A program made the translations under genes and the position numbers. 64,000 nucleotides of DNA from Myxococcales bacterium (lineage in GTDB: Bacteria > Desulfobacterota > Binatia > HRBIN30). Below, in pieces: positions 21,645-63,958 of the stretch. Where the stretch lies: positions 29,496-93,495 of the forward strand of contig JBBILD010000014.1 of NCBI GenBank assembly GCA_037445065.1. The letters are read 5' to 3'. The notes under the pieces are model-generated. The model saw nothing but the letters and a program-made list of their open reading frames with translations, did not search any database and was not told the DNA's origin. Positions within the stretch are counted from its first letter, which is position 1. Each line of letters opens with the position of its first letter.

Positions 21645-21661
21645 CGTCAACACGCGAGCGA

Positions 21662-21678
21662 AGCAAGTTCCGGGCCGA
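21662..21678 (-). promoter_or_regulatory. Candidate sigma54 (-24/-12) promoter
   Basis: Minus strand reads TCGGCCCGGAACTTGCT (GG-N10-GC with TTGCT), just upstream of the hybrid kinase. Confidence 0.3.
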
Positions 21679-21850
21679 CACCTTGCCGTTGTGATCGTCA
21701 CGGATGGGTTGCACACAGGCCGAGCGGGAGAGTGACGATTCAAAGGCACTCCGGTTCATACGGGTGATGCAATCAACAACGGTAGCAGTGTGGGAGGCGA
21801 AGACAGGGTCAGGCCTTGCTGTTTGATACCTCGGCCCTTTTCGCCAACGA

Positions 21851-22612: not shown

Positions 22613-22707
22613 ACAGGGCCGCTCTATACGGGCGAGCCACCCCGCCCGCAACCACGCACTTCGCTAGGACTTCGTTTCACCACGTTTCGCCAGCAGCGCG
22701 TTTCGCC

Positions 22708-41689: not shown

Positions 41690-42032
41690 GGCCTCGCAGT
41701 TATCACAAGCGCCTACGTTGGTCGCAAGTTCACCCGCGTCTCGCGCCTGCAAGAGATTTCCGTGGTCGTGGACGGCACGCCAACGCCAGCGGCTCGCCCC
41801 AACTCCGCCGTCCGGCGCCCCATGCAAACGACTCCCGTGAGCTCCGGGCAGGTGGCTCAACGGTGCCTCAGACTAAGCGTTCGATTCTCAAGGCTGCGAA
41901 AGCGGAGGCGACCCCGCTCCGAAAGGGCAGATATGTACTGGGTGACTTGTGAATCTTTGTGCAGAGCAAAGCCGCGGTGCAGAAGTTGCTTGGGGCTATG
42001 CCTTTTCAGAACCGCCCGAGCTTGGAGCGAAG

Positions 42033-47769: not shown

Positions 47770-48999
47770 GTGAGCCAATATAGAAGCATGTCTGAAGAAG
47801 AACTGCGCGAGCGGGTGCGCCGTCTGAAAGCCGAGGTGCACCCAGACCAAACCGACATGTTCACCTTTCGCGGGGCCCAGTATGATCATGGCTTGGCATG
47901 GGTGCATTTTCCGGAGGGCTACGGCGGATTGGGCATCAACCCGAAGATGCAGGCCATCGTGAACGATGAGCTGAGGAAGGATGTACGCACCGTTTACGAT
48001 GACCTGATGATCAATCCAATCGGCATCGGGATGGGCGCGCCGACGCTCATGACTTATGGTTCCGAGGAACTCAAACGCGCCCTTTTGCGCAAGTGCTTCA
48101 CCGGGGAAGAAATTTGGTGCCAGTTGTTCAGCGAGCCGGGGGCCGGTTCCGACGTGGCCGGGCTGGCCACCCGTGCGGTGCGTGACGGGGACGACTGGGT
48201 GGTCAACGGCCAGAAGGTGTGGACCACGCTTGCCCACGTTGCCAAGTGGGGCCTGCTCGTTGCCCGAACGAACCCGGACGTGCCGAAACATGAGGGTCTG
48301 TCCTACTTCCTGCTTGATATGCACTCACCTGGGGTCGAAGTGCGACCTCTTTACCAGATCACGGGCGAGGCAGAATTCAATGAGGTGTTCCTCAACGATG
48401 TGCGCATCCCCCACCGCTACATGCTCGGGCAAGAAGGTCAGGGTTGGCAGGTGGCGATCACCACACTGATGAATGAGCGTACCGCCCTGGGCGGCGGCGC
48501 TGGGCAACGCGGTGGCGGGCCGATTGCCGTGCTGTTGCAGCTTTGGAGTGCCCGCGCTGCGGGCAGCCACTCGCCCGGCGAAGAGGCAGTTTTGCGCGAC
48601 CGAATCGCCCGTTTGTACATCGAATCCGAACTCCTGCGCCTGACGAGCTTGCGCGCCCGCGCCATGATGCGGGCCGGGAACCCTGGTCCGGAAGGTTCTG
48701 TCGGCAAGCTGGCGCAGGCCGAGCTGTACAAGAAGATCTGGGAGTGCGCGATGGACGTTCTTGGGGACAACGCGCTTGTGTACGAGCCGGGTTACGAGCT
48801 GCGGCGCCCGGCGGCGGAGGAGCGGCGCGACAAGGTCTTGCTCGCGAAGTACCAGTTCCTGCGTTCGCGCGCCAATTCGATCGAAGGGGGCACTTCCGAG
48901 ATCATGCGCAACATTTTGGGCGAGCGGGTGCTTGGTTTGCCGGGCGAGCCACGAAGCGACAAGGGGATTCCGTGGAAAGACATTCCGCGGGGTGGCTGA
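47770..48999 (+). CDS. Acyl-CoA dehydrogenase (catalytic subunit)
   Basis: WCQLFSEPGAGSD, NGQKVWTT, SIEGGTSEIMRN. Confidence 0.93.
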   Translation: MSQYRSMSEEELRERVRRLKAEVHPDQTDMFTFRGAQYDHGLAWVHFPEGYGGLGINPKMQAIVNDELRKDVRTVYDDLMINPIGIGMGAPTLMTYGSEELKRALLRKCFTGEEIWCQLFSEPGAGSDVAGLATRAVRDGDDWVVNGQKVWTTLAHVAKWGLLVARTNPDVPKHEGLSYFLLDMHSPGVEVRPLYQITGEAEFNEVFLNDVRIPHRYMLGQEGQGWQVAITTLMNERTALGGGAGQRGGGPIAVLLQLWSARAAGSHSPGEEAVLRDRIARLYIESELLRLTSLRARAMMRAGNPGPEGSVGKLAQAELYKKIWECAMDVLGDNALVYEPGYELRRPAAEERRDKVLLAKYQFLRSRANSIEGGTSEIMRNILGERVLGLPGEPRSDKGIPWKDIPRGG

Positions 49000-49041
49000 T
49001 TGCCCGACCGCAGATTCCGAACGATTCGAGGAGATTGGACG

Positions 49042-50160
49042 ATGGACTTTGCTTTTACACCCGAACATGAGGAACTCCGGCAAACGATTCGCCGGTTTTT
49101 GCAAGACCGTTCGCCGGAAGCGGTTGTGCGCCGTACCATGGTGACGGAACAAGGATACGAGCGAGACACATGGCAAGCGATGGCCGAGCAGTTGGGACTG
49201 CCCGGCTTGCTGGTGCCCGACCACCTTGGTGGCACGGGTTTAGGCGCAGTGGAGCTGGCTATTGCCTTCGAAGAAATGGGTCGAGCCTTGCTCTGCGCGC
49301 CGATGCTTTCCACGGCTGTTTTGGCTGTGTCGGCGTTGCGAGAAGCTGCGCGCACCGAGGTCCAAGAAGAACTCTTGCCTGCGCTGGCCACCGGCCAGAA
49401 AACGGCCGCCCTCGCTTGGGCCGAGCCTGGCAACGTGTGGGAGCCGCAACAAATCCGCATGAAGGCAGCGCGCGCCGGGAAAGGTTGGACGCTGAGCGGC
49501 GAGAAGGTCGCTGTGATCGATGGACACACGGCGGATGAACTCCTCGTGGTCGCCAGAGCAGGGAAGGCGCTTTCTCTGTTCCGGGTTGCTGGGGAGGCCG
49601 ATGGCGTGCAGCGAGCACTTTTGCCGACGTTGGATCTGACCCGCAAACTCGCTCGCGTCACCTTCACAAAGGCTCGTGCCGAGCAGATCGCCGCGAGCGA
49701 AGACGTCAGCGAGGCGTTGGCCCGGGTCTTTTACTTGGCGTTGATTGCCCTGGCGGCGGAACAGACGGGTGGGGCCCAATACTGCTTGGAGATGTCTACG
49801 CAACACGCCAAGACTCGCTGGCAATTTGGCCGCCCCATCGGCTCTTTCCAGGCGATCAAACATCGCTGTGCGGACATGCTCGTGGCCGTAGAGTTCGCCA
49901 AATCGGCGGCGTACCATGCCGCTTTCCGTGCCGCCGAGCAGGACGCCGCAGAACTGCCAGTAGCGGCCCGCATGGCTAAGGCGTACTGCTCGGAAGCGTT
50001 CTTTCAAGTCGCCAACGACACGATCCAAGTCCACGGCGGCATGGGCTTTACCTGGGAACATCCGGCACACTTGTACTTCAAGCGGGCGAAGAGCAGCGCT
50101 TTGCTGTTCGGGGATCCGATCCACCACCGTGAGCGCTTGGCGGCGCTGATCGGAGTCTGA
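49042..50160 (+). CDS. Acyl-CoA dehydrogenase (probable non-catalytic partner subunit)
   Basis: QFGRPIGSFQAIKH, HGGMGFTWE; LLFGDP lacks the C-terminal catalytic Glu. Confidence 0.9.
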   Translation: MDFAFTPEHEELRQTIRRFLQDRSPEAVVRRTMVTEQGYERDTWQAMAEQLGLPGLLVPDHLGGTGLGAVELAIAFEEMGRALLCAPMLSTAVLAVSALREAARTEVQEELLPALATGQKTAALAWAEPGNVWEPQQIRMKAARAGKGWTLSGEKVAVIDGHTADELLVVARAGKALSLFRVAGEADGVQRALLPTLDLTRKLARVTFTKARAEQIAASEDVSEALARVFYLALIALAAEQTGGAQYCLEMSTQHAKTRWQFGRPIGSFQAIKHRCADMLVAVEFAKSAAYHAAFRAAEQDAAELPVAARMAKAYCSEAFFQVANDTIQVHGGMGFTWEHPAHLYFKRAKSSALLFGDPIHHRERLAALIGV

Positions 50161-50171
50161 GGGTCTGTTAA

Positions 50172-50213
50172 ACGCGCCGCGCTCAGAAGCGACCCAGCTC
50201 GAGCGCGGCGCGT
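50172..50213. terminator. Hairpin between convergent genes (probable terminator)
   Basis: Perfect 13-bp inverted repeat ACGCGCCGCGCTC/GAGCGCGGCGCGT with a 16-nt loop, overlapping the TauE stop codon. Confidence 0.55.
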
Positions 50214-50938
50214 ACTAGGCCTGCGAGACCGAGCAACGCCAGGAGCCCGATGGCAACGATCCGGTAGCGCCGCGCCTCGGGCCGCCGCGTGAACAGGTGC
50301 TCACCCAGGGCGACACCGGCCCAAGCCGGCACCAGCCAAGTCACACCGTGCAGCACCGTGGTGCGGTGAAATAAGCCGGCCGCGTGCGCGGCGAACAGAG
50401 AGAACACGTCGACAACCGAGAAAAAGGCGATCAGGGATGCACGCGAGACCTCGGGTGCGAGCGCCGAGCCGAGATAGTACACAATGACCGGCGGCCCGCC
50501 GATCGCCGCACTGGAGTTGAGTAGGCCGGCGAGTGCTCCGGTTGCAAAAGTGACGATGGAACCCGGACGGCGCTTGAGCGTCCAACCACGGGCGAGCATC
50601 CACGCGGCTCCGCACACGATCGCGGAGACCCACAGCCGCATCACGGCGGCCGGGGCGAGAGCGAGGAGCGAGGCTCCGGGCAAAGTGCCCAGCGCTGCCC
50701 CCAACACGAGCCGGCGGAACGATTGCCAATGGATGTGGCGCCAGGCCTTGGGAAGCAACTGCAAGGAAGCGACGAGTTCCAGGACGAGGACCGCCGGTAC
50801 CACGTCTGCCGGCGAACGCAGCAACGACAATCCGGTGACCGCCACCATGGCAAAGCCGAAGCCGCTGAAACCGCGCACCGCTCCGGCAACGAATAGGACG
50901 AGCCAGTCGGCAGCGATCTGAACGGGAGCCAGCTCCAT
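50183..50938 (-). CDS. Sulfite exporter TauE/SafE family protein
   Basis: GAVRGFSGFGFAMV, GLLNSSAAIGGPP, ~8 TM segments. Confidence 0.88.
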   Translation of the reverse strand: MELAPVQIAADWLVLFVAGAVRGFSGFGFAMVAVTGLSLLRSPADVVPAVLVLELVASLQLLPKAWRHIHWQSFRRLVLGAALGTLPGASLLALAPAAVMRLWVSAIVCGAAWMLARGWTLKRRPGSIVTFATGALAGLLNSSAAIGGPPVIVYYLGSALAPEVSRASLIAFFSVVDVFSLFAAHAAGLFHRTTVLHGVTWLVPAWAGVALGEHLFTRRPEARRYRIVAIGLLALLGLAGLVRAALELGRF

Positions 50939-50981
50939 GTCGGTGACTCGGCGCCGGGTTCGAACCGAGGCCAAGGGAAAG

Positions 50982-51019
50982 AAAAAAAAGAGGCGCGCCC
51001 ACTTCCTGCAGGCGCGCCT
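50982..51019 (-). terminator. Rho-independent terminator
   Basis: Minus strand AGGCGCGCC-loop-GGCGCGCCT followed by a T tract, just after the beta-barrel gene. Confidence 0.8.
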
Positions 51020-51041
51020 GCTGACCACTGACGAACGCCGC

Positions 51042-51617
51042 TTATTGCGTGGGCAAGAGATACGTAAGGCCGATGCCAGTGGTGACAAATTCGACGTTGT
51101 TGGTCGGGTTGACCCTTTGGTCGAGCGTGTTGTAGCGGGCCCACACGCCGACGCTGGCGAGTTCATTGAGCTGCAAATTCAGGCCGCCACCGGTCGAGAA
51201 TCCCCAAGAGGTGCGGCTGATCGGCGTGTCGCCGGAAAGCCCGGAGAACACGCCCACTTGAAAGGTCCCGTACGCCTCGATGTCCATCCCGTTCCAGGAG
51301 ATTGGTTGCGCAAGCCGCGGCCCGCCGTGGAAAGCGAAGGCCCAAGTTGCGTCTTTGTCGCGAATGCCGGGACGGTTGTCGTTGGGGAAGCCGATGACCT
51401 GAGTTTGCGCCATGAGCCCCAGGTAGTCGTTCCACATGTAGGCCACGTACGGGCTGAAGGTCCCGCCGGTGTCGAGCCGATCCGTGCTCTTGTCGGTGGG
51501 GATTGCAGCGCCAAGGTCCAAGCCGGCGGACACCTTGCCTTGTGCGTGCACCGTTGGCACCAGCCCTAGGGCGGTTGCCAGCGTGGCCATACTGATCCAG
51601 CGTCCGAAGTTTCTCAT
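51042..51617 (-). CDS. Outer membrane beta-barrel protein (OmpA/OmpW-like 8-strand)
   Basis: RBS GAGGAGG, signal peptide ending VHA-Q, alternating amphipathic strands ending GIGLTY. Confidence 0.8.
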   Translation of the reverse strand: MRNFGRWISMATLATALGLVPTVHAQGKVSAGLDLGAAIPTDKSTDRLDTGGTFSPYVAYMWNDYLGLMAQTQVIGFPNDNRPGIRDKDATWAFAFHGGPRLAQPISWNGMDIEAYGTFQVGVFSGLSGDTPISRTSWGFSTGGGLNLQLNELASVGVWARYNTLDQRVNPTNNVEFVTTGIGLTYLLPTQ

Positions 51618-55546: not shown

Positions 55547-55654
55547 CTCGGCTCGATCACAACGAGGGTACCTACCAAACGAAAACCCTCGATCAATCAC
55601 AAGGAAGCATCAATCTTTTCATGCCCTCGATAAGAAACGCTGACGGGCTCGACT

Positions 55655-56890
55655 TCACGCTTCCGGGTGGCGCACGAGAAGGAAGCTGTTCATCCCGCCG
55701 TAGCCGTAACTACTGATCAGGACGTGCTCGAGCGTGGCCGGGCGGGGAGTGAGCGGCACATAATCGAGGTCGCACCCTTCTGCCGGCTCTTTCAAGTGGT
55801 GCGTTGGCGGGATGATTTGATGGCGCAGGGCGAGGCAGGCCACCGCCGTTTGAAACGCCCCAGAGGCGCCAAAGGGGTGCCCGAGAATGGCCTTGATCGA
55901 ACTCACCGGGATCCGCGCGGCCCACTCGCCAAAGGCCGCCTTGGCAACGGCGGTTTCTTTGCGGTCGAACAGCGGTGAGGCGTTGGCGTGCGCGCAAAGC
56001 CAGGAAACGTGCTTTGCCTCGAGCCCCTGGTTTGCGAGCAGCGCGCGTATGGTCGCACCGGCAGTCGCGCCGCTGGCCTCGCTCCGGAACAAGCCTTGGG
56101 CATCGCAAGAACTTGCCCCACCGAGCACTTCAGCGTAGATGTGCGCCCCACGCGCCCGCGCGTGCTCGCGCTCCTCGAGCACCAGGAAGCAAGCTCCTTC
56201 GCTCAGCACCATGCCATTGTGGCGGCGATCGAACGGCCGGCAGGCGCGCGGTGGGTCGCTGTCGTCACGCGCGAGCTCCATCGTCCGACCCATGCTGGCG
56301 AATACCGTCAGCGCCAGTGGGCTTTCTGTGCCGCCAGCGAGCACAAGATCTACGTCGCCGCTGGCGATGAGCATGCGCCCTAACGCCAGTGCCTGGGTGC
56401 TCGCAGTGCAGCCCGAGGTAATTGCTGTCGTGTAACCGCGCGCGCCGGCGGCCGCTGCCAGTTCCCCGGCGCTCGCCAAAGGGAGGGAGCTGTTGGCCAC
56501 GAAGGGATTCACTCGTCTTGCCCCCCGTTCGTAAAGAATGCCGAACTGTTGCTCCGTGTTTTTGAGTCCCGCAATGGCGGATCCCACGAGGAGAGCAATC
56601 CGTTCCGGCGCTACCCCAGCGGGTTCTTGGTGACGTTTGAGCAGCGACAGCGCAGCGACTCCGAGCTGCGTGGCGTGGCTTGCTGTCCGTAGCAGCGCGG
56701 GGTCAATAAGTGCCGCGACGACAGCGTCGTCAATTTCGCCCGCCACCGAGCAAGCGTAACCGGCAGGGTCGAAACGGGTGATCCGCCGGACTCCGGAGCG
56801 CCCTTCGAGTACGGCTTGCCAGAGTGTGTCCGGGTCGTTGCCGCAGGGAGACACAAGGCCGATGCCAGTGATCACCACGCGCCGTTGCAT
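55655..56890 (-). CDS. Beta-ketoacyl-ACP synthase (FabF/KS-alpha-like)
   Basis: RRVVITGIG, catalytic SGCT, AHANAS, SIKAILGHPFGASG (Cys-His-His), SSYGYGG. Confidence 0.92.
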   Translation of the reverse strand: MQRRVVITGIGLVSPCGNDPDTLWQAVLEGRSGVRRITRFDPAGYACSVAGEIDDAVVAALIDPALLRTASHATQLGVAALSLLKRHQEPAGVAPERIALLVGSAIAGLKNTEQQFGILYERGARRVNPFVANSSLPLASAGELAAAAGARGYTTAITSGCTASTQALALGRMLIASGDVDLVLAGGTESPLALTVFASMGRTMELARDDSDPPRACRPFDRRHNGMVLSEGACFLVLEEREHARARGAHIYAEVLGGASSCDAQGLFRSEASGATAGATIRALLANQGLEAKHVSWLCAHANASPLFDRKETAVAKAAFGEWAARIPVSSIKAILGHPFGASGAFQTAVACLALRHQIIPPTHHLKEPAEGCDLDYVPLTPRPATLEHVLISSYGYGGMNSFLLVRHPEA

Positions 56891-56910
56891 GATTCTTTTG
56901 TGCAGGCTGC

Positions 56911-58056
56911 TCAGAGCCGTAAGTGTCCTGCGACCAGGTCCTTCATGAGTTCGGAGACACCACCGCCAATCGTAAACATGCGCACATCCCGATACGCGCG
57001 CGCTACCCAATGGTCTTCCAAATAGCCTTCGGCTCCGTGCAGTTGCGCGCACTGCTCGACCACTTTTTGCACGGTTTCCATAACCAAAAATTTGATCATG
57101 CAAATTTCTTTGCTTTCGACCTGCCCGTCGCGGAACGACTCCGCCACCGAGTGCACGAAGCGACGGCAGCACTCCACTTGGGCCGCCATCTCGGCGATGC
57201 GATGGCGAACCGCTTGCAACTTCCCGAGCGGTTGCTCGTAGAGCTGGCGGTTCTGTACCCTGCGGATGGTCTCTTCGAGGATGAGCCTGGCGAGGGAAAT
57301 GGCGCTCGCCGAAGTGACCAGCCGCTCCCGCTGCAGCCCGTTCATGAGATAAACCAAGCCGAGGTGTGGCCTACCGATGGTAAGAGTTTTGGGTACCCGG
57401 CAATCGTTAAAGCGTAGCCAACCGGTAGGCGAAGAACGCATGCCCATGGTGCGCAGCGTCTCCACGACTTCGAAGCCGGGGGTATCTGTCGGCACGAGGA
57501 CCAAAGCGAAGCCGGCAGTGCCTCTTCCGGACGGGCCCGTGCGCACCAAGGTGAGCACGTAATCGGCAATGGGGCCGTTGGTGATGAATTTCTTTTCTCC
57601 CGAGATCACCCAGAAGTCGCCTTCGTCACGGGCGGTGCACTGAACGGAGCGAACCAAATCGGTCCCGCCAGTTGGTTCCGTGGCGGCGAGTGCCGCCACT
57701 TTCTCCCCCGAAAGAAGCGCTGGAAGAAACCTGCGACGGTGCTCCTCGGTTCCCTGGTGCACCAGAAATGGGATGACGAAGTGGGCTTGCGCTGCGAAAC
57801 TCAGCGGTAAGCCCATCATCCGCGAGCGCGGGAGTTCCTCGACCAGCACGATTTCATAAGCAAAGTCCAAGCCCTGCCCGCCGTACTGCGGCGGGATGGA
57901 TAACCCCAGCCAGCCGTGTCGTCCGAAGATCTGGAACACGTCTTTGGTGAGGGCGCCCCACTGTTCCCACTCGTGGGCCCGCGGTGCGAGTTCGCGCTCG
58001 ATCACTGCGCGAACTTCGCGACGGAAGGCCTCATGCGCGGCTGTGAAAAGACTCAC
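56911..58056 (-). CDS. Acyl-CoA/acyl-ACP dehydrogenase (LCAD-like)
   Basis: ATEPTGGTD, GEKKFITNG, LQRERL, TIGGGVSE; overlaps the ACP stop codon. Confidence 0.92.
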   Translation of the reverse strand: MSLFTAAHEAFRREVRAVIERELAPRAHEWEQWGALTKDVFQIFGRHGWLGLSIPPQYGGQGLDFAYEIVLVEELPRSRMMGLPLSFAAQAHFVIPFLVHQGTEEHRRRFLPALLSGEKVAALAATEPTGGTDLVRSVQCTARDEGDFWVISGEKKFITNGPIADYVLTLVRTGPSGRGTAGFALVLVPTDTPGFEVVETLRTMGMRSSPTGWLRFNDCRVPKTLTIGRPHLGLVYLMNGLQRERLVTSASAISLARLILEETIRRVQNRQLYEQPLGKLQAVRHRIAEMAAQVECCRRFVHSVAESFRDGQVESKEICMIKFLVMETVQKVVEQCAQLHGAEGYLEDHWVARAYRDVRMFTIGGGVSELMKDLVAGHLRL

Positions 58057-58340
58057 GGTGACCCTCCTGAGGTGGTTGCCGCTACGGCCCGCTCGTAGAT
58101 GTAGTCCACGATGTCACCAAAGCGGTTGCGTTCGATCATTTCGAGCGCATCGAGTTCGGTACCGAACTCGTCTTCGAGGGCCACGACCAACTCGACGAGT
58201 TGCACCGACTCGATCACGATGGCGGTATCGAACGATGCATCCTCGTTGATGTCCTCCAACGGCACTTTCGCGATCTCGTGCAGGAGTTGTTTGGCGCGCT
58301 CGGCAACGTAGTCGCGTGAAAAGGGAAGCGAGTGGGTCAA
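58053..58340 (-). CDS. Acyl carrier protein
   Basis: RBS GGAGGAG before TTG 58340; acidic ~95 aa; IESVQLVELVVALEDEF helix II with the Ppant Ser. Confidence 0.85.
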   Translation of the reverse strand: MTHSLPFSRDYVAERAKQLLHEIAKVPLEDINEDASFDTAIVIESVQLVELVVALEDEFGTELDALEMIERNRFGDIVDYIYERAVAATTSGGSP

Positions 58341-58358
58341 CGTTGGCGTCTCCTCCGT

Positions 58359-58372
58359 CGAAAACGTTTTCG
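58359..58372. promoter_or_regulatory. Palindromic operator candidate in the divergent promoter region
   Basis: Perfect 14-bp palindrome CGAAAACGTTTTCG in an AT-rich ~100-bp intergenic gap. Confidence 0.5.
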
Positions 58373-58438
58373 TCAATCAGCAAAAAGCACTTGACTTGCA
58401 AGCATTAACTCGCTGAAAGGAGCTTGGTCAATCGAGTC

Positions 58439-59026
58439 ATGCCCGAGCCGCGTTCCGACCCGCAAACCCGTGCCGGCGTCGCCCGCCAGCGTGGCCTGGT
58501 GGTGAAAGTGGCGGATGCCCGCGAACGCGAAGTCGCGCTAGCGCGGCGCGCGGAGATTTACACGCGCGAACTCGGTTACCACGGGCTCGACGAGTACGAC
58601 AAAATCGCCATCCACTTGGTGGCCATTGACGATCAGCACGGTATCGTAGGGGCAGTGCGGCTGCTCGGACCGAAACCGCTGCCGTTGGAAGTTGCTTCGT
58701 TTCTTCCATCGCAAGTTTTGGCGAATCTTGAGGGAAGAATAGGGCAAATCGGCGGACTGTGGGTCACAAGAGAGGGGCGCCGGGTGATCCACACCACTGT
58801 GTCGCTAGCCCTGCTGGATTTTTCCTTGTCGGTGGCCGCTCGCCTGCGTCTCACCGCCTTGGTGCTACGCACTGTCCCCAGCCTGCAAGATTACTATCGC
58901 ATGGTCCGCTTTCGCTCCCTGGGCCGCGGCATCTTCCCCGATCCGCATTGGGGAGAAGTGGCAGTCATGGTCCGCGGCATCCCCGAGAGTTGCGGCAGCG
59001 AGGCAACCGGGAGCGTTGCCGCTTGA
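58439..59026 (+). CDS. GNAT-fold acyltransferase, LuxI/FeeM (N-acyl amino acid synthase)-like
   Basis: R.EIY..ELGY..LDEYD....HL.......VGAVRL....PLE...IGGLWV..R resembles the N-terminal block of acyl-ACP-dependent autoinducer and N-acyl synthases. Confidence 0.7.
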   Translation: MPEPRSDPQTRAGVARQRGLVVKVADAREREVALARRAEIYTRELGYHGLDEYDKIAIHLVAIDDQHGIVGAVRLLGPKPLPLEVASFLPSQVLANLEGRIGQIGGLWVTREGRRVIHTTVSLALLDFSLSVAARLRLTALVLRTVPSLQDYYRMVRFRSLGRGIFPDPHWGEVAVMVRGIPESCGSEATGSVAA

Positions 59027-59040
59027 GGGAGGCGCCACTC

Positions 59041-61329
59041 ATGGAACGGTTGGCTTCCCATTTCTTTACCGCGAGTTTCCCGCTGTTTGGGACTCTTGCT
59101 GCACTGGTCCTAGGCTCCGTCGTGGCAGTTTTTCGGCGCGATGTTGTGGGCCGCAGCTTTGTTCTCCTTTGCGGCTTACTTGCGGTTTGGAACTTCTACT
59201 TCTTTTTGTCCTATTCGCTGCCCTGCACTGCGGACGCGTTGGCGATTCTGACGCCGTTACGGGTGGGTCCTATTTTGCTCCCCGTCGCCATCTTCAACTT
59301 GGCGGTGGTGGTTGGAGGGCAGCGAGGCAGGAGGACTGAATCCCTCCTGGGACTAACGACCGCCGTTGCTCTGGTGGTAATCGGGAGCAATGCCCTCGGA
59401 CAGGCAGTCGTCGGGCTGCGCGAGTTCTCATTCGGGTGTTACTCGGCGCCCGGCCCCCTTTATCACCTTTACACTCTGGAAGTCGCTGTCTGCTTCATGG
59501 CTGCTAGTGCCCTCTGGCTCAACGACCTTCGTCACGCGCAGAACCCTGAACAACGCACGGTTGCCAAGTTCTGGTTTCTTGGTGCTGCAGTCGCCCTGCC
59601 CTTGGGACTGACCCATTTGCTTCCTGCCTATGGCATCCCCATGTATCCGCTAGGCAACTTGGGCAGTGCGGTGTGGGTGGCGCTGATTGCGTACGCCATC
59701 CTCCGGCACCGGCTGCTCGACATTGACGCCATCCTTTCGCGCGGGCTGGCGATCGTTCTGAGTGGACTTGCTGTGGCTTTGCCCGCCCTGTTGGTGGTGG
59801 TGCTCGTGCAGCGCGTCTCCTTCAACGAGGTGCACGCGGATTTCACGGGGGTGGTGATCGTGTTGTTGTTGCTGGCCTCGGCTGGAGTGCATTGGGTACA
59901 CGGCCAGGCCCTCAAGGCAGCGGAGAAGAGGGCCGCGGAGCGCAAGGTGGAGCAGCGGGTGACGTTGGACGTCATTGCGCGTTTGGCCCTGCAGCACCAG
60001 AGCCGTGACCGTTTGTTCGAGGCCGCTGCGAGCGCCATCCAACTGGTCTTCGACCCGCCCACCATCGTCATCGGTTACCGCCCCAACCGTAAGGAGCGGG
60101 TGGACCTGAGCTTGAAGCGGGGTGTGCCGCCCGCCGAGCCGTATGTGGCAGCCGACTCACCCCTGCTGACTTGGCTCGAGAAGTGCGAGACCTCGCTTTT
60201 GCCGGCGGAACTCGAAGAGATTGGAGATGCTAGTGCCCTCGCTGCCGCGCAGATCATGCGCAGGAACCAATGGGCGGTGTGCGTTCCCTTCAAGACCAGC
60301 CGTTCCGTCCTTGGCTTTCTCGCCGCGGGTCTGAAGAACGGGATTGACTTTTACTCAGCTAGCGAACTCGAGGCTCTGGAACGCGTGGGGTGCGAACTCA
60401 CTCTGGCCCTTGATAACTTGCACATGCGCGACGAAGTCGGCATCGCCCAGGAAGCCGTGTTTCGCTCCGAGCGGCTGAGCTCGCTCGGCACCATGGTCGC
60501 GGCGGTGGTACACGAAGTCCGCAACCCGCTGGTGTCTCTTAGTACCTTTGTGCAACTGGTGGAGGACCGGGTCGGCGATCGGCAGTTCTTTCAGTCGGCG
60601 ATGCCAGTGGTGAAGGCAGAACTCGACCGTGTCGGCAAAATGCTGGAGACCTTGCTCAGCTATACCCACGTGAACAAAGCTGTGCTCGGGCCGGTTTACT
60701 TCGACGTGATCTTCGAGCGCGTGCGGCTGTTGCTCGAGCCGCACGCCAAACGCTTCGGTGTGAAACTGTTTGTGGATCATCGCACCGATGGGCCGGTGGT
60801 GCGTGGCGACGAAGATCGCTTGATGCAAGTGGTCTTCAACCTGGTCATGAACGCCGTCGAAGCGAGCCCGCCCGGAGGTACGGTGAAGGTGGAGTGGGAT
60901 CGCATCTTTCGCGGCGGCGAGTACTACGGCGCAGTGCGGGTAACGGATCAGGGCCCCGGAATTCCGGCTGCCGATCGCAGCCATATTTTTCTGCCGTTTT
61001 TCACCACCAAGGCAAATGGCAGTGGCCTCGGGCTCTCCGTGTCGTTGCAAATCGTGGAAGAGCACCACGGCTTTCTCGAGGTCAGCGATAACCCGGGAGG
61101 GGGCGCGGTGTTTACGATGGGCATCCCGGTGTATCTGGAGACGCGCAAAAGTCTCGAGCTGCGTGATCCGCTCTCCGAGCCAGGAGTGATTGGCGGGAGC
61201 AGCAAAGCGACCGCGCCCCAGCAGGCCGCGGAAGGCAACCCGGCAGTGGGCGACGCGATTCCGCTGCTTGCTGAGCGTGGCCATCCCCCCGAAGTGGTTG
61301 AGTTCGACAAACCTCGCGAAGACCACTGA
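59041..61329 (+). CDS. Multi-TM (HisKA_7TM-like) GAF sensor histidine kinase
   Basis: RBS GGGAGG; ~9 hydrophobic segments, YAILRHRLLDI, GAF-like region, HEVRNPL, NAVEA, DQGPG, FFTTK..GSGLGL. Confidence 0.9.
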   Translation: MERLASHFFTASFPLFGTLAALVLGSVVAVFRRDVVGRSFVLLCGLLAVWNFYFFLSYSLPCTADALAILTPLRVGPILLPVAIFNLAVVVGGQRGRRTESLLGLTTAVALVVIGSNALGQAVVGLREFSFGCYSAPGPLYHLYTLEVAVCFMAASALWLNDLRHAQNPEQRTVAKFWFLGAAVALPLGLTHLLPAYGIPMYPLGNLGSAVWVALIAYAILRHRLLDIDAILSRGLAIVLSGLAVALPALLVVVLVQRVSFNEVHADFTGVVIVLLLLASAGVHWVHGQALKAAEKRAAERKVEQRVTLDVIARLALQHQSRDRLFEAAASAIQLVFDPPTIVIGYRPNRKERVDLSLKRGVPPAEPYVAADSPLLTWLEKCETSLLPAELEEIGDASALAAAQIMRRNQWAVCVPFKTSRSVLGFLAAGLKNGIDFYSASELEALERVGCELTLALDNLHMRDEVGIAQEAVFRSERLSSLGTMVAAVVHEVRNPLVSLSTFVQLVEDRVGDRQFFQSAMPVVKAELDRVGKMLETLLSYTHVNKAVLGPVYFDVIFERVRLLLEPHAKRFGVKLFVDHRTDGPVVRGDEDRLMQVVFNLVMNAVEASPPGGTVKVEWDRIFRGGEYYGAVRVTDQGPGIPAADRSHIFLPFFTTKANGSGLGLSVSLQIVEEHHGFLEVSDNPGGGAVFTMGIPVYLETRKSLELRDPLSEPGVIGGSSKATAPQQAAEGNPAVGDAIPLLAERGHPPEVVEFDKPREDH

Positions 61330-61448
61330 GCCGCCGCGCTGGGCCCGGCTGCACCGATCCCGACTCGCTTTTGCCGGTGGACCGCGCTGAGCACGAGCAG
61401 GCCGTGGCACGGTTGACGCTCGGCCTGCAATGCGGTTCACTACGAGCC

Positions 61449-62333
61449 ATGCCGCGCGCACGCGCCAACGGGATCGAAATCGAATACGAAGAGTTCGGGT
61501 CGCCACAGAGCCCCGCCATGCTGCTGATCATGGGGCTGGGCGCGCAAATGATTTTGTGGCGAGACGATTTTTGCCGTCTCCTCGTGGAGCGGGGTTTCCG
61601 CGTGGTCCGCTTCGACAATCGCGACGTTGGCCGCTCCACCTGGCTCGATCACTTGGGAGTCCCGAACATCATGCAGGCGATGGCAGCGGCCGTGAGCGGG
61701 CAGCCCTTCGATGCCCCATATCGGCTGAGCGACATGGCGGCCGACGCCGCCGGGCTGCTCGATGCACTGGGCATTGCCAAGGCCCATGTGGTCGGTGCCT
61801 CGATGGGCGGTATGATTGCGCAAACCCTGGCCATCGAACATCCCGAACGCGTGGCCAGCCTGACCTCGATCATGTCGAGCACGGGCGAGCCGGGCCTCCC
61901 GCCGCCAGAGCCGCAAGCCATGAGCGTGCTGCTGGCCCCGCAACCGAACACTCTTGAAGCGGCCATCGAGCGCGGGGTGCAGGTGTTTCGCACCATCGGT
62001 AGCCCAAAGTATTTCGACGAGCAGGAAGTGCGCGAACTTGCCGGGAAGGCATTCGACCGCGGCTTCAACCCGGCTGGTGTGATGCGCCAGCTGGCCGCGA
62101 TTCTGGCCTCGGGAAGCCGCAAGGAAGCCTTGGCAAACGTGCGTGTGCCGGCGCTGGTGATCCACGGTCGGATCGATCCGCTCGTGCCCTTTGCCGCAGG
62201 GGAGGCCACCGCGCGCGCCATCCCGGGAGCTGAGTTGCTGGCTTTCGAAGACATGGGTCATGACATGCCGCGTCCCTTGTGGCCTTCCATGATCAGGGCG
62301 ATCGAAGCCACTGCGCGCCGTGCCCGGCTGTGA
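61449..62333 (+). CDS. Alpha/beta hydrolase
   Basis: IMGLG, FDNRDVG, GASMGG nucleophile, HGRIDP, MGHD. Confidence 0.92.
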   Translation: MPRARANGIEIEYEEFGSPQSPAMLLIMGLGAQMILWRDDFCRLLVERGFRVVRFDNRDVGRSTWLDHLGVPNIMQAMAAAVSGQPFDAPYRLSDMAADAAGLLDALGIAKAHVVGASMGGMIAQTLAIEHPERVASLTSIMSSTGEPGLPPPEPQAMSVLLAPQPNTLEAAIERGVQVFRTIGSPKYFDEQEVRELAGKAFDRGFNPAGVMRQLAAILASGSRKEALANVRVPALVIHGRIDPLVPFAAGEATARAIPGAELLAFEDMGHDMPRPLWPSMIRAIEATARRARL

Positions 62334-63187
62334 GAGCCGCTGTCCCGCTGCTGCTCTGCGCCGCGTTATCGGCCTGTGCCTCCCCTGCCGGAGAGCGCTT
62401 GCGTTTGGCAACGACGACCAGCGTGGAAAACTCGGGTTTGCTGGGGCATCTCGTGCCGCTCTTCGAACGAGCGAGTGGGATTCGGGTGGAGGTCATCCCC
62501 ACCGGCAGCGGAAAGGCACTCAAGCTGGCAGAAAACGGCGATGCCGACTGCGTGTTGTCGCACGCCCCTGGCCTCGAACGAGCATTCCTGGACCGGCAAG
62601 CCGTCATCGAACCCGCCCCCATCATGTACAACGAATTCGTGCTGGTGGGTCCGCCGGAAGACCCGGCTCGCGTGCGCGAGGCCACTTCGCTCGCCCAGGC
62701 GTTGCGCCTGATTGCGGCGGCGCAAGGCTTCTTTTTTTCTCGCGGTGACGACTCCGGCACGCACGAAATGGAACGAACGCTGTGGCAGGAAGCCGGAATT
62801 GCGCCGAGCGGCCGCTGGTATTTCCAGACCGGCCAGGGGATGGGCGCCACGCTCCGCATTGCCTACGAGCGGCGAGGGTACACGTTGTCGGACACTGCCA
62901 CCTTCGCCCAGTTCGCAGGTCGCGGGGACCTGCAAGTTTTGGCGAGGGACACCCCGCCGCGTCGCAACGTTTACTCGGTCATGGCGACCAATCCGCAACG
63001 TTATCCGAGCGCTCGATACGCGCAGGCACGTAAGCTCATCGCCTGGCTCGCTTCGGCGGATGGCCAGCGCGCGATTGCATCCTTCCGGCCGAAAGGAGAG
63101 GAACTGTTTCACCCACTGTCTCTGAGCGCGCCTCCCCTGGGGTCTTGCACCCCCGAATTGGGCCGGGGCTGCGTTCCCGCTCCGTGA
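62330..63187 (+). CDS. tupA: Tungstate ABC transporter substrate-binding lipoprotein
   Basis: Lipobox LSAC, LATTTS signature, SRGDDSGTH, GQGMG. Confidence 0.88.
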   Translation: MRAAVPLLLCAALSACASPAGERLRLATTTSVENSGLLGHLVPLFERASGIRVEVIPTGSGKALKLAENGDADCVLSHAPGLERAFLDRQAVIEPAPIMYNEFVLVGPPEDPARVREATSLAQALRLIAAAQGFFFSRGDDSGTHEMERTLWQEAGIAPSGRWYFQTGQGMGATLRIAYERRGYTLSDTATFAQFAGRGDLQVLARDTPPRRNVYSVMATNPQRYPSARYAQARKLIAWLASADGQRAIASFRPKGEELFHPLSLSAPPLGSCTPELGRGCVPAP

Positions 63188-63262
63188 GTGGAGAACATCA
63201 GCCAGCGCGCGGGGGAACTTGTTGCTCGAGAAGCCGCGTGCTTGCCTGTTGCGCTGGCGAAC

Positions 63263-63958
63263 ATGTCCCTGCTGGAAGCATTCCTCACTGCGATTCGCTT
63301 GCTCGTGGGATTCGATCCGCAGGTGTGGGGCGCGGCTTGGATGACCCTGTACGTCTCGGTGGTGGCAACGGTCTGTGCGATGAGTTTCGGCGTTCCGGTT
63401 GGATTTCTGCTGGCGCGCCGAAAAGGGGGCGGGCAACAGGTCCTTGCGGTGTTCCTGAGAACCCTGACTGCCCTCCCCACTGTGGTGGTCGGGCTCGTGG
63501 TGTATGCCTTGCTGTCACGCAGCGGCCCGCTTGGTTTCTTGGGTTTGCTCTACACGCCAGCGGCCATGATTGTGGGCGAGACTCTGCTGGTGACACCACT
63601 TGTGGCGGCGTTGACCTTCGGCTTGGTCCGCAGCGCGGATCCGCGCATCGAGGAGACGGCGCTCACCTTGGGAGCCACGCCCCTGCGCGCCGCCTGGATG
63701 CTGGTGCACGAACTCCGAACTGGGTTCGCGATGGTGCTTGCGACCGCCTTTGGGCGTTTGGTGTCGGAGTTGGGGGTCGCCCTCATGGTCGGAGGCAACA
63801 TCTTGGGTGCCACCCGCACCCTGACCACGGCGATTGCCCTGGAAACAGGCAAAGGCGAGTTTGCGCTGGCCTTAGCACTCGGGATCGTCCTCTTGGCCGT
63901 AGCGCTCCTGGTGAACTTGGCGGTCTCCTGGTCCACCGCCTCGGCGCGACTCCCATGA
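63263..63958 (+). CDS. tupB: Tungstate ABC transporter permease
   Basis: LPTVVVGL..Y..LSRSGPLG, EAA-like loop, VGGNI..TRTLTTAIALET.KG. Confidence 0.9.
   Translation: MSLLEAFLTAIRLLVGFDPQVWGAAWMTLYVSVVATVCAMSFGVPVGFLLARRKGGGQQVLAVFLRTLTALPTVVVGLVVYALLSRSGPLGFLGLLYTPAAMIVGETLLVTPLVAALTFGLVRSADPRIEETALTLGATPLRAAWMLVHELRTGFAMVLATAFGRLVSELGVALMVGGNILGATRTLTTAIALETGKGEFALALALGIVLLAVALLVNLAVSWSTASARLP

What the first reader, a model, noticed from the sequence alone, without database searches (positions are those of the whole stretch)
55655..62333. Candidate lipid-signal synthesis and sensing system: ACP-ACAD-KS divergent from a LuxI/FeeM-like synthase, a 9-TM kinase and a hydrolase
Seen: one arm encodes a dedicated ACP, an acyl dehydrogenase and a lone ketosynthase. 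Across a ~100-bp gap, a GNAT acyltransferase with LuxI/FeeM-like residues lies 14 nt upstream of a ~9-TM GAF histidine kinase, and an alpha/beta hydrolase follows. No LuxR and no response regulator are adjacent. Established: LuxI and FeeM-type enzymes transfer acyl groups from acyl-ACP to amine acceptors, and synthase/membrane-kinase pairs (LuxM-LuxN, CqsA-CqsS) form quorum-sensing circuits. Inference: the locus builds a tailored (elongated or desaturated) acyl chain on its own ACP, amidates it into a signal, senses it with the kinase and may degrade it with the hydrolase. I do not recognise this combination as a described system.
Basis: partly seen in the sequence, partly recalled or inferred. 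Interest (0 to 1): 0.85.

Follow-up and report, generated by a model that had tools for sequence, protein, structure and literature searches.

The report
FeeM-like acyltransferase paired with membrane kinase
A rare FeeM/LuxI-like acyltransferase gene sits directly in front of a nine-helix membrane sensor kinase and opposite a small operon for making a special fatty acyl chain, which makes it a reasonable but unproven candidate for a lipid signal-and-receptor pair.

Summary
One operon on the minus strand encodes an ACP, an IVD/LCAD-type acyl dehydrogenase and a FabF-like ketosynthase with an intact Cys-His-His triad. It faces a 195-aa GNAT whose stop lies 14 nt before a 762-aa, 9-TM HisKA_7TM histidine kinase.

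The GNAT belongs to a small family with no NCBIfam model that claims it: 133 representative clusters among 1.84 billion proteins. Family members match Pfam Acetyltransf_5 (57 of 79), FeeM (44 of 79) and Autoind_synth (8 of 79). The best fold match of the model is FeeM. It is not a canonical LuxI, not OlsB, and not a member of the exosortase-linked NAS family TIGR03694.

The GAF domain is only weakly supported. The hydrolase is the weak part of the claim. It starts 119 nt after the kinase, its stop overlaps the start of a TupA-like transporter gene, and it resembles ester/lactone hydrolases.

The biosynthetic reading (tailored acyl-ACP converted to an N-acyl amide) is plausible. The signal-and-receptor loop rests on adjacency in one genome. 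I rate it a new variant of known kinds, of moderate interest.

The parts
55586..55605 (-). Terminator-like hairpin plus T-run just after the KS stop; separates the acp-acad-ks operon from sdhCAB
   Evidence: consensus scan; 8 such sites in the region against 7.7 expected, so the site alone is weak. One search shows sdhC starting about 55546.
55655..56890 (-). FabF-like beta-ketoacyl-ACP synthase, 411 aa; a diverged paralogue of the elongating type
   Evidence: Pfam ketoacyl-synt 4.4e-36 and Ketoacyl-synt_C 1.2e-22. NCBIfam fabF 355 bits, below its cut-off of 494. In the alignment to B. subtilis FabF 4ls5 (281 bits) the Cys, both His and the Lys are in place. Start ATG 56890, 20 nt after the ACAD stop.
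56911..58056 (-). Acyl-CoA/acyl-ACP dehydrogenase, 381 aa, IVD/LCAD type
   Evidence: All three ACAD Pfam domains. Best solved relatives are 2pg0, LCAD 8w0t and IVD 1ivh. Glu in 'QRERLV' aligns with the Glu of 2pg0 'LQQERLV'; 'IGGGVSE' stands where MCAD has its Glu (the residue roles are recalled). Its start overlaps the ACP stop by 4 nt.
58053..58376 (-). Dedicated acyl carrier protein (107 aa from TTG 58376; more likely 95 aa from TTG 58340)
   Evidence: PP-binding 2.7e-10. Below every NCBIfam ACP cut-off (best 36.5 bits against 71). Ser kept: 'ESV' aligned on 'DSL' of solved ACPs. GGAGGAG lies 9 nt before TTG 58340.
58359..58372 (.). Perfect 14-bp palindrome CGAAAACGTTTTCG in the divergent control region (or in the first codons of the ACP if it starts at 58376); a candidate operator
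   Evidence: It is the only 0-mismatch copy in the window. No function has been tested.
58439..59026 (+). FeeM/LuxI-like GNAT N-acyltransferase, 195 aa; member of a small family that no NCBIfam model claims
   Evidence: Pfam Acetyltransf_5 25 bits against a cut-off of 22.4. Family of 133 representatives. Of 79 members, 57 match Acetyltransf_5, 44 FeeM and 8 Autoind_synth, and 41 match TIGR03694 weakly. AF2 model pLDDT 87. Best fold match is FeeM 2g0b, TMq 0.67-0.71. The family profile matches AHL synthases TofI at 4.5e-6 and 6wns at 1.4e-5.
59041..61329 (+). Sensor histidine kinase, 762 aa: 9 TM (HisKA_7TM plus two helices), an alpha/beta GAF-like linker domain, HisKA and HATPase_c; no receiver domain
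   Evidence: Pfam HisKA_7TM 5e-9, HisKA 1.9e-7, HATPase_c 3.6e-25, GAF_3 only 0.059. Hydropathy. H-box 'HEVRNPL' and the N, G1, F and G2 boxes are visible in the translation. The core is nearest AtoS, ZraS, VirA-like and PrsK, all below their cut-offs.
61449..62333 (+). Alpha/beta-fold esterase, 294 aa; doubtful member of the system
   Evidence: Abhydrolase_1 1.7e-26. Nearest are the macrolide esterase families (203 bits against a cut-off of 420) and PcaD. Among solved structures: 8pzg 'ORF17' 243 bits, EstT/EstX, RdmC. A 119-nt gap follows the kinase; stop TGA 62331-62333 overlaps GTG 62330 of a TupA-like lipoprotein.

Best explanation
The locus consists of two divergently transcribed operons that most likely form one small lipid-amide module.

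Left arm (acp-acad-ks). A dedicated ACP is loaded with a fatty acyl or malonyl group from the housekeeping pool. The FabF-like KS extends a primer by one malonyl unit, and/or the IVD/LCAD-type flavoenzyme introduces a 2,3-double bond into the ACP-bound chain. The result is an acyl-ACP that ordinary fatty-acid synthesis does not supply. This is the logic of NodF/NodE and of MbtL/MbtN.

Right arm (GNAT-kinase). The FeeM/LuxI-like GNAT transfers that chain from the ACP to an amine, giving an N-acyl amide. The acceptor is more likely an amino acid or another small amine than SAM. The co-transcribed kinase has an input part that lies almost wholly in the membrane. It is the best candidate receptor for this amphipathic product, and it would signal to a response regulator encoded elsewhere. 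The kinase core is of the kind that pairs with NtrC-type regulators.

The esterase is probably not part of the module.

What is shown: gene identities, intact catalytic residues, operon geometry, and the family placement of the GNAT.

What is inferred, with my rough odds:
- An acyl-ACP donor for the GNAT, about 0.6.
- Supply of the chain by the divergent arm, about 0.45.
- The kinase as receptor of the product, about 0.2.
For: - GNAT family placement: 57 of 79 members match Acetyltransf_5, 44 of 79 FeeM and 8 of 79 Autoind_synth. 41 of 79 match the NAS family TIGR03694 weakly, against 12 of 79 for OlsB.
- The confident model (pLDDT 87) has FeeM as its best fold match by both E-value and TMq.
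- The family profile matches three LuxI-type synthases in the PDB.
- All listed nearest clusters in the language-model search carry FeeM, Acetyltransf_5 or Autoind_synth, or no common family.
- Left-arm operon geometry: ACP/ACAD 4-nt overlap, ACAD/KS 20-nt gap, terminator-like site after the KS.
- Right-arm geometry: GNAT/kinase 14-nt gap, with the kinase ribosome-binding site immediately after the GNAT stop codon.
- Catalytic residues are kept in the ACP, the KS and the kinase, and the expected Glu is kept in the ACAD.
- The kinase has nine membrane helices and no periplasmic domain of any size.
- Precedents: NodE/NodF make alpha,beta-unsaturated chains for N-acylation of Nod factors (passages in PMC9048898). 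MbtN is an acyl-ACP dehydrogenase (title in the reference list of PMC5302061; the roles of MbtK and MbtL are recalled). LuxN and CqsS are membrane kinases that detect HAI-1 and CAI-1 (passages in PMC8895600). PhcS senses methyl 3-hydroxymyristate (abstract listing of PMC11960443).
Against: - There is no evidence that the arrangement recurs anywhere else. The only genome scan returned one spurious locus.
- The contig lengths of six kinase relatives and seven GNAT relatives do not coincide. This is a very incomplete test.
- The window's own GNAT matches only Acetyltransf_5, at 25 bits. It matches neither FeeM nor Autoind_synth at E<=0.01.
- General acetyl-CoA GNATs follow FeeM closely in Foldseek E-value, and the best profile-to-sequence hit is the ElaA-like PA0115.
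- The window's subtype has Gln and Gly where TofI has the Glu and Arg of 'ELSR'.
- No acyl-activating enzyme, malonyl transferase, reductase, PPTase, exporter or response regulator lies in the locus.
- The ACAD cannot be told from a CoA-dependent enzyme by sequence.
- Divergent neighbours are often unrelated.
Confidence: 0.35

Rival explanations
1. The GNAT and the left arm make an N-acyl amino acid or aminolipid that serves as a membrane lipid, surfactant or antibiotic, not as a signal. The kinase sits in the operon only to regulate production in response to some other cue (envelope or membrane state), or it controls unrelated genes.
For: - Characterised NAS products are described as antibacterial or surface-active and as tied to biofilm and exopolysaccharide loci, not as autoinducers (passages in PMC7293339).
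- The nearest NCBIfam family is the exosortase-linked acyltransferase (41 of 79 members).
- HisKA_7TM is a widespread input domain. No ligand is stated for it in the passages seen.
Against: A 14-nt synthase-kinase junction is the arrangement recalled for known signal/receptor pairs. The kinase has no input domain apart from its membrane helices and one cytoplasmic linker domain.
Confidence: 0.27
2. The two arms are unrelated neighbours. acp-acad-ks makes a specialised fatty acid or small polyketide for another purpose. The GNAT draws on housekeeping acyl-ACP or acyl-CoA, and the esterase belongs to the transporter operon.
For: - No conservation of the arrangement could be shown.
- The locus is wedged between sdhCAB and a TupA-like ABC transporter, that is, in ordinary chromosomal context.
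- The esterase is coupled to the transporter gene.
Against: - A dedicated ACP beside an acyl-ACP-type transferase is the FeeL/FeeM and MbtL/MbtK pattern (recalled).
- The divergent region is short (62-98 bp) and carries a unique perfect palindrome.
Confidence: 0.22
3. The GNAT is an acetyl- or short-acyl-CoA transferase acting on a small molecule or on a protein, possibly the kinase itself. It is not a lipid-amide synthase.
For: - The best profile-to-sequence PDB hit is PA0115 (1xeb, E=2.2e-6), followed closely by SACOL1063.
- Many acetyl-CoA GNATs score within tenfold of FeeM in Foldseek.
- 6 of 79 members also match Acetyltransf_1.
Against: - Far more members match FeeM (44 of 79) and TIGR03694 (41 of 79).
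- FeeM aligns over nearly the whole length (172-181 columns, TMq about 0.7), while the small GNATs reach TMq 0.64 or less.
Confidence: 0.1
4. It is a true acyl-homoserine-lactone synthase, with the alpha/beta hydrolase acting as an AHL lactonase and the kinase taking the role of LuxN.
For: - The family profile matches TofI, 6wns and RpaI.
- D51, D54 and R74 align with the TofI Asp, Asp and Arg.
- The hydrolase's nearest families open lactones or esters (EstT/EstX, PcaD).
Against: - The window's protein has no Autoind_synth hit, and only 8 of 79 relatives do.
- Q103 and G106 replace the Glu and Arg of TofI 'ELSR'.
- The hydrolase is coupled to the transporter gene, not to the kinase.
Confidence: 0.05

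Closest known systems
[quoted passage not shown]
   Same: - Same fold: the best Foldseek match is 2g0b, TMq 0.67-0.71.
- 44 of 79 family members match the FeeM model, and 41 of 79 match TIGR03694.
- A dedicated ACP gene lies next door. That FeeM works with FeeL is recalled, together with the title of Van Wagoner and Clardy 2006 seen in the reference list of PMC7293339.
   Different: - The window's protein scores 16.9 bits against the TIGR03694 cut-off of 112 and does not reach the FeeM model at E<=0.01.
- It shares 13-15% identity with FeeM.
- No PEP-CTERM protein or exosortase was seen in the window.
- It is paired with a kinase, an ACAD and a KS, none of which appears in the NAS passages I read.
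LuxI-type acyl-homoserine-lactone synthases (PF00765)
   Same: - GNAT-derived acyl-ACP transferases.
- The family profile matches TofI 3p2f (E=4.5e-6), 6wns (1.4e-5) and RpaI 6wn0 (4e-3).
- The Asp-x-x-Asp and Arg positions align.
   Different: - The window's protein has no Autoind_synth hit.
- Gln and Gly stand where TofI has Glu and Arg.
- There is no LuxR nearby.
Synthase plus membrane-kinase signalling pairs: LuxM-LuxN, AinS-AinR, CqsA-CqsS, PhcB-PhcS
   Same: A gene for a lipid-derived signal synthase lies next to a polytopic membrane histidine kinase. LuxN and CqsS as autoinducer-detecting kinases: passages in PMC8895600. PhcS: abstract listing. The gene adjacency in those systems is recalled.
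   Different: - The synthase is of another family. LuxM, CqsA and PhcB are not GNATs (recalled).
- This kinase is not a hybrid, whereas LuxN and CqsS are.
- Its input domain is HisKA_7TM.
- No phosphorelay partner is nearby.
NodF-NodE-NodA of rhizobia
   Same: A special ACP and a lone FabF-like KS make an unusual (alpha,beta-unsaturated) chain that an N-acyltransferase puts on a signal molecule (passages in PMC9048898).
   Different: - NodA is not a GNAT, and its acceptor is a chitin oligomer (recalled).
- There is no ACAD in that system.
- No NCBIfam NodE or NodF model appeared among the hits listed for the KS or the ACP.
MbtK-MbtL-MbtN of mycobactin synthesis
   Same: ACP, an ACAD acting on acyl-ACP, and a GNAT that N-acylates an amine. 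MbtN as an acyl-ACP dehydrogenase: title seen. The roles of MbtK and MbtL are recalled.
   Different: - The ACAD here scores 107 bits against the MbtN cut-off of 700.
- There is a KS in place of the acyl-AMP ligase MbtM.
- There is no siderophore context.
PrsK, the PEP-CTERM system kinase (TIGR02916)
   Same: - A polytopic membrane kinase with a cytoplasmic domain before the kinase core.
- Model positions 308-679 align, at 105 bits.
- Its stimulus is stated to be unknown (passage in PMC1569441).
   Different: - The score is below the cut-off of 300.
- The membrane part does not align.
- There is no PrsR or PrsT next to it; in the paper 12 of 13 PrsK/PrsR pairs are tandem.

Membership tests
Pfam Acetyltransf_5 (PF13444) | Score at or above the gathering cut-off | tested here: met
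   25.1 bits against 22.4, E=2.9e-5; 57 of 79 relatives also match.
LuxI-type AHL synthase (PF00765) | Match to the Autoind_synth model | tested here: not met
   No hit at E<=0.01 for the window's protein; 8 of 79 relatives match.
LuxI-type AHL synthase (PF00765) | Conserved acidic and basic residues of the N-terminal half and of the 'ELSR' strand (that these are the signature residues is recalled) | tested here: inconclusive
   In the profile alignment to TofI, D51, D54, R74 and P82 fall on the TofI Asp, Asp, Arg and Pro. Q103 and G106 fall on the Glu and Arg. Family-wide, column 103 has Q in 30, L in 22 and E in 13 of 79; column 106 has R in 42 and G in 26 of 79.
LuxI-type AHL synthase (PF00765) | Cognate LuxR-type receptor gene nearby (usual, not obligatory) | tested here: not met
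   No Autoind_bind or GerE domain in any ORF scanned.
FeeM / N-acyl amino acid synthase | Match to Pfam FeeM (PF21926) or NCBIfam TIGR03694 above the cut-off | tested here: not met
   No FeeM hit at E<=0.01. TIGR03694 scores 16.9 bits against 111.95. Relatives: 44 of 79 match FeeM, and 41 of 79 match TIGR03694 at E<=0.1.
FeeM / N-acyl amino acid synthase | FeeM-like fold over the whole length | tested here: met
   2g0b chains hold ranks 1 and 3-6, with TMq 0.67-0.71, TMt 0.71-0.76 and 172-181 aligned columns. The model has pLDDT 87.
FeeM / N-acyl amino acid synthase | Forms N-acyl amino acids from acyl-ACP | not testable with these tools
   This needs enzyme assays. The GNAT+ACP complex prediction gave no verdict.
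FeeM / N-acyl amino acid synthase | Linkage to PEP-CTERM/exosortase genes (Craig et al. 2011, as quoted in PMC7293339) | tested here: not met
   No ORF in the window has a PEP motif followed by a membrane anchor (1 weak motif hit, no anchor). No exosortase appeared among the Pfam hits. Only 64 kb were seen.
OlsB ornithine-lipid acyltransferase | Match to the OlsB models | tested here: not met
   No hit for the window's protein; 12 of 79 relatives hit weakly, best E=4.3e-4.
Signal synthase / receptor-kinase pair (LuxM-LuxN, CqsA-CqsS type) | Synthase gene adjacent to a polytopic membrane kinase gene | tested here: met
   14-nt gap; 9 predicted helices.
Signal synthase / receptor-kinase pair (LuxM-LuxN, CqsA-CqsS type) | Hybrid kinase with a receiver domain feeding a phosphorelay | tested here: not met
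   No Response_reg domain in the 762-aa protein.
Signal synthase / receptor-kinase pair (LuxM-LuxN, CqsA-CqsS type) | The kinase responds to the synthase's product | not testable with these tools
   Needs biochemistry or genetics.
Signal synthase / receptor-kinase pair (LuxM-LuxN, CqsA-CqsS type) | The pairing is conserved among relatives | tested here: inconclusive
   The genome scan found no true relative. 0 of 4 plasmid searches matched. The contig lengths of kinase and GNAT relatives never coincide, but only 7 GNAT relatives and 6 kinase relatives were listed.
HisKA_7TM kinases (PF16927) | Score above the gathering cut-off | tested here: met
   36.8 bits against 28.6, residues 20-228. The nearest Atlas clusters are 66-80% HisKA_7TM.
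PrsK (TIGR02916) | Score above the cut-off, with the whole model aligned | tested here: not met
   104.9 bits against 300; only model positions 308-679 aligned.
FabF, housekeeping KAS II (TIGR03150) | Score above the cut-off; Cys-His-His triad | tested here: not met
   355 bits against 493.75. The triad and the Lys are present, so this is an active-looking paralogue, not the housekeeping enzyme.
MbtN-type acyl-ACP dehydrogenase (NF037942) | Score above the cut-off | tested here: not met
   107 bits against 700. Use of acyl-ACP is inferred only from the 4-nt overlap with the ACP gene.

The most novel reading that the evidence does not exclude
The GNAT and the kinase form a new kind of autoinducer circuit. 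A FeeM-like synthase makes a tailored N-acyl amide on a private ACP, and a HisKA_7TM kinase detects it within the membrane. If so, this would give the first ligand class for the widespread HisKA_7TM input domain.

It would also bear on an older question. The nearest named relatives of both proteins belong to the PEP-CTERM/exosortase world: the NAS family TIGR03694, and PrsK, whose stimulus is stated to be unknown. The pair would therefore suggest that N-acyl amino acids are the missing signal of PrsK-type kinases.
Probability: 0.15. Interest if true: 0.8.

Novelty: new variant of a known kind. Interest (0 to 1): 0.45.

Why it matters
Lipid-amide synthases of the FeeM/NAS type are widespread in soil and water bacteria, but in the papers I saw their physiological role is unsettled. 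Polytopic kinases of the HisKA_7TM and PrsK types have no known ligands in the passages I read. A synthase and a kinase in one operon, with a private acyl-chain workshop across the promoter, is a compact five-gene system that can be cloned to test whether such amides are self-made signals. If the pairing is not conserved, the locus is just one more unnamed GNAT beside a kinase.

Tried and rejected
- **Synteny survey.** The five-sequence alignment A5 matched 33 stretches, of which 1 passed tblastn. That one is a 39-residue match inside a 618-aa ORF of Noviluteimonas, so it is spurious.
- **Plasmids.** tblastn of four family members (P0001, P0017, P0007, P0030): 0 of 4 matched.
- **Contig-length matching.** Kinase relatives sit on contigs of 13048, 76491, 2484, 7372, 73266 and 33965 bp. 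GNAT relatives sit on contigs of 1297, 5634, 1628, 118326, 4428, 767562 and 1170 bp. None coincide, but the lists are too incomplete for this to count either way.
- **Complex prediction of GNAT with ACP.** No verdict: score 0.01 against a mark of 0.32; controls were not run.
- **Kinase fold search.** The model was poor (pLDDT 59.9). The search returned only kinase cores and phytochromes, so the input domain stays unexplained.
- **Fused forms.** Among the eight longer or N-terminally extended family members scanned, I found tandem GNATs (P0125, P0136) and an unnamed N-terminal extension of about 230 aa (P0115, P0135), but no kinase or ACP fusion.
- **Sigma-54 promoter.** The pattern is not enriched (90 matches against 80.5 expected), and the divergent region has none with the GG.
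- **Other scans.** 0 sigma-70-type sites were found, and terminator-like sites are at the chance level. Rfam gave 0 matches. No PEP-CTERM tail was found.
- **Considered and rejected.** A prolyl-carrier-protein oxidation cassette of the RedW/PigA type: the ACAD scores 206 and 170 bits, far below the cut-offs of 650 and 500, and no adenylation enzyme is present.
- **Literature.** Five searches found no description of this gene combination. Craig et al. 2011 is not held, and bioRxiv supplements are closed.

Full report
**Observation**

The window has 60-65% G+C around the locus.

On the minus strand three genes are tightly packed.
- The ACP (PP-binding E=2.7e-10) ends 4 nt inside the start of the dehydrogenase gene.
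- The dehydrogenase carries all three ACAD domains.
- The ketosynthase starts at ATG 56890 (MQRRVVITGIG), 20 nt after the dehydrogenase stop.
- A terminator-like hairpin follows the KS at 55605-55586. The succinate dehydrogenase operon sdhCAB comes next.

On the plus strand the GNAT (58439-59026) stops 14 nt before the kinase ATG (59041), and GGGAGG lies between them. The ACP probably starts at TTG 58340, which has GGAGGAG 9 nt upstream.

No receiver or LuxR-type domain was found in any ORF scanned from 47.8 kb to the window end. This includes 0 of 45 alternative ORFs in 55.3-64 kb. The window ends only 2.7 kb past the kinase, so a regulator further downstream cannot be excluded.

**The enzymes of the left arm look active**
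- In the alignment to B. subtilis FabF (4ls5, 281 bits) the Cys, the two His and the Lys of elongating synthases are in place. The protein nevertheless falls below the NCBIfam FabF cut-offs (355 against 494 bits, and 350 against 387). It is therefore a diverged paralogue.
- The nearest solved relatives of the dehydrogenase are 2pg0, human LCAD and IVD. It has Glu in 'QRERLV' aligned with the Glu of 2pg0. It has Gly where I recall MCAD carrying its catalytic Glu, so it is of the IVD/LCAD type.
- The ACP keeps its Ser ('ESV' aligned on 'DSL') but lies below every NCBIfam ACP cut-off.
- Sequence does not show whether the dehydrogenase acts on ACP or CoA thioesters. The 4-nt overlap with the ACP gene is the only hint.

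**The GNAT**

A word-based search found only two close relatives, at 60% and 51% identity. An exhaustive profile search of 1.84 billion representatives found 133 proteins at E<=0.001, of which 88 are at E<=1e-10 and 16 at E<=1e-30. Nearly all are 170-240 aa long.

I aligned 79 sequences: the window's protein, the two close relatives, and 76 of the 88 hits at E<=1e-10. I left out twelve that were truncated or shorter (P0023, P0047, P0050, P0066, P0072, P0076, P0078, P0081, P0088-P0091).
- Of the 79, 57 match Acetyltransf_5, 44 FeeM, 8 Autoind_synth and 6 Acetyltransf_1.
- In NCBIfam, 41 match the exosortase-associated acyltransferase TIGR03694. Twelve match an OlsB model, and 5 and 4 match the two TraI models. 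All of these hits are weak.
- The window's own protein reaches only Acetyltransf_5 (25 bits, cut-off 22.4). It scores 16.9 bits on TIGR03694 (cut-off 112).

The AlphaFold model built on this alignment is confident (pLDDT 87, pTM 0.82). Its best PDB matches are chains of FeeM (2g0b: E=1.9e-8, TMq 0.67-0.71, 172-181 columns). Small acetyl-CoA GNATs follow closely in E-value but cover less of the model.

The family profile searched against PDB sequences gives PA0115 (2.2e-6), the AHL synthases TofI (4.5e-6) and 6wns (1.4e-5), RpaI (4e-3) and FeeM (0.12). In the TofI alignment, D51, D54, R74 and P82 fall on the TofI Asp, Asp, Arg and Pro. The Glu and Arg of TofI 'ELSR' correspond to Q103 and G106.

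The family splits into two motif types at these positions. In the G-R-x-C type, 42 of 79 have Arg and 35 of 79 have Cys. In the G-G-x-W type, to which the window's protein belongs, 26 of 79 have Gly and 27 of 79 have Trp.

A language-model search places the protein among clusters that carry FeeM, Acetyltransf_5 and Autoind_synth.

Taken together, this is a distinct small family in the FeeM/LuxI/NAS neighbourhood. It is not a canonical LuxI, not OlsB, and not a member of TIGR03694.

**The kinase**

It has 762 residues. Nine hydrophobic segments lie between residues 10 and 288. The first seven match HisKA_7TM (36.8 bits, cut-off 28.6), and HisKA and HATPase_c are clear. The H, N, G1, F and G2 boxes can be read in the translation. 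There is no receiver domain.

GAF is only hinted at:
- GAF_3 scores E=0.059.
- One relative has a precomputed GAF_3 domain.
- The PrsK model aligns from its position 308 onward.
- An alpha/beta domain at 320-430 has pLDDT 72-89 in an otherwise poor model (pLDDT 59.9).

The kinase core is nearest AtoS, ZraS, a VirA-like kinase and PrsK, all far below their cut-offs. As I recall, kinases of those kinds work with NtrC-type regulators.

The sensor part has four closer relatives, at 79% (partial), 72%, 63% and 39% identity, and two distant ones at 27%. Its nearest Atlas clusters are HisKA_7TM proteins of Chloroflexota and Rokuibacteriota. In the passages I saw, the domain is listed as a sensor domain without a stated ligand (PMC5847659).

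**The hydrolase**

Its true start is ATG 61449 (MPRARANGIEIEYEEFG), 119 nt after the kinase stop. Its stop codon overlaps the GTG of a lipoprotein with a 'LSAC' lipobox. That protein is a TupA-like binding protein: PBP_like_2 at 2.5e-31, and 199 bits on the TupA model against a cut-off of 400. An ABC-permease-like ORF follows directly.

The hydrolase's nearest families are macrolide esterases (203 bits against 420) and 3-oxoadipate enol-lactonase. The nearest solved structures are 8pzg 'ORF17', EstT/EstX and the methylesterase RdmC. These are ester and lactone hydrolases, not amidases.

I therefore do not count the hydrolase as part of the system. Co-transcription with the kinase cannot be excluded, because no terminator lies between them.

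**Conservation: the decisive test, which I could not make**

It returned one locus, which is a chance match.

As a substitute I compared the contig lengths reported for kinase relatives and GNAT relatives. None coincide. With six and seven relatives listed, several of them on contigs under 3 kb, this says little. Whether the pairing recurs therefore stays unchecked.

**Mechanism**

I favour a lipid-amide module. A private ACP carries a chain that the KS lengthens and/or the flavoenzyme desaturates. The GNAT transfers that chain to an amine. The co-transcribed, almost purely membrane-embedded kinase is the best candidate to sense the amphipathic product.

Each half has a precedent:
- NodF/NodE make alpha,beta-unsaturated chains for N-acylation of Nod factors (passages, PMC9048898).
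- MbtN is an acyl-ACP dehydrogenase (title only). The partner roles of the ACP MbtL and the GNAT MbtK are recalled.
- LuxN and CqsS detect HAI-1 and CAI-1 (passages, PMC8895600).
- PhcS senses methyl 3-hydroxymyristate (abstract listing).

My odds are about 0.6 that the GNAT uses acyl-ACP, about 0.45 that the divergent arm supplies the chain, and about 0.2 that the kinase senses the product.

The rivals are these:
- A structural or surfactant lipid, with the kinase as an unrelated or upstream regulator.
- Unrelated neighbouring operons.
- An acetyl-CoA-type GNAT.
- A true AHL system.

**Comparison with the exosortase systems**

NAS genes are reported to lie next to PEP-CTERM/exosortase genes. 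I have this from Craig et al. 2011 as quoted in PMC7293339; the original paper is not held. The stimulus of the PEP-CTERM kinase PrsK is stated to be unknown (PMC1569441).

Here, distant relatives of both protein types are fused into one operon. However, no PEP-CTERM protein or exosortase was seen in these 64 kb. This is the basis of the boldest reading, that N-acyl amides are ligands of such kinases. I hold that at about 0.15.

**Novelty and verdict**

Five full-text searches found no description of this combination. The library lacks most subscription journals, and bioRxiv supplements were closed.

The parts are known kinds. The GNAT family has no NCBIfam model that claims it, and the arrangement is a new variant. 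The finding is a sound candidate that now hinges on one simple neighbourhood survey. Interest 0.45.

Noticed in passing
window 62330-63958: A TupA-like lipoprotein binding protein (GTG 62330, lipobox LSAC) whose start overlaps the esterase stop. It is followed at once by an ABC-permease-like ORF (63188-63958) that has an EAA-loop-like 'EETALTLGATPLR' but no Pfam hit.
   Followed up: partly
window 58359-58372: A perfect 14-bp palindrome, CGAAAACGTTTTCG, between the ACP and GNAT genes. It is the only exact copy in the window and a possible operator; it is A+T-rich in a G+C-rich genome.
   Followed up: partly
window 61405-61419: A -24/-12-like sequence, TGGCACGGTTGACGC, 30 nt before the esterase ATG. 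The pattern is not enriched in the window (90 matches against 80.5 expected), so this is only a lead.
   Followed up: partly
window 47770-50160: Two adjacent acyl-CoA dehydrogenase genes (pimC/pimD- or IpdE2-like, below the cut-offs), followed by a TauE/SafE-family exporter on the other strand (50183-51166).
   Followed up: no
alignment A2 (GNAT family), window protein positions 103-108: The family splits into two motif types, G-R-x-C (42 of 79 Arg, 35 of 79 Cys) and G-G-x-W (26 of 79 Gly, 27 of 79 Trp). These may mark different acceptors or donors.
   Followed up: partly
proteins P0115, P0135, P0125, P0136: Longer family members. Two have an N-terminal extension of about 230 aa with no significant Pfam match; two are tandem FeeM/Autoind_synth-like duplications of about 500 aa.
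   Followed up: partly
window 19101-21749 (-) and 41949-43553 (+): Two further sensor kinases: a PAS-rich hybrid kinase with a receiver domain, and a PAS kinase. Neither has an adjacent response regulator among the ORFs scanned.
   Followed up: no
window 21851-22651 (-), 25460-26302 (-), 15353-16492 (+): A FabG-like short-chain dehydrogenase, an acyl-ACP-thioesterase-like protein and a radical SAM/SPASM enzyme lie 30-40 kb upstream. No link to the locus was examined.
   Followed up: no
window 1280-3895 (+) and 28391-29377 (-): Large secreted-looking proteins (DUF11 with an ice-binding-like domain; Laminin_G_3). No PEP-CTERM tail was found in them by the motif scan.
   Followed up: partly
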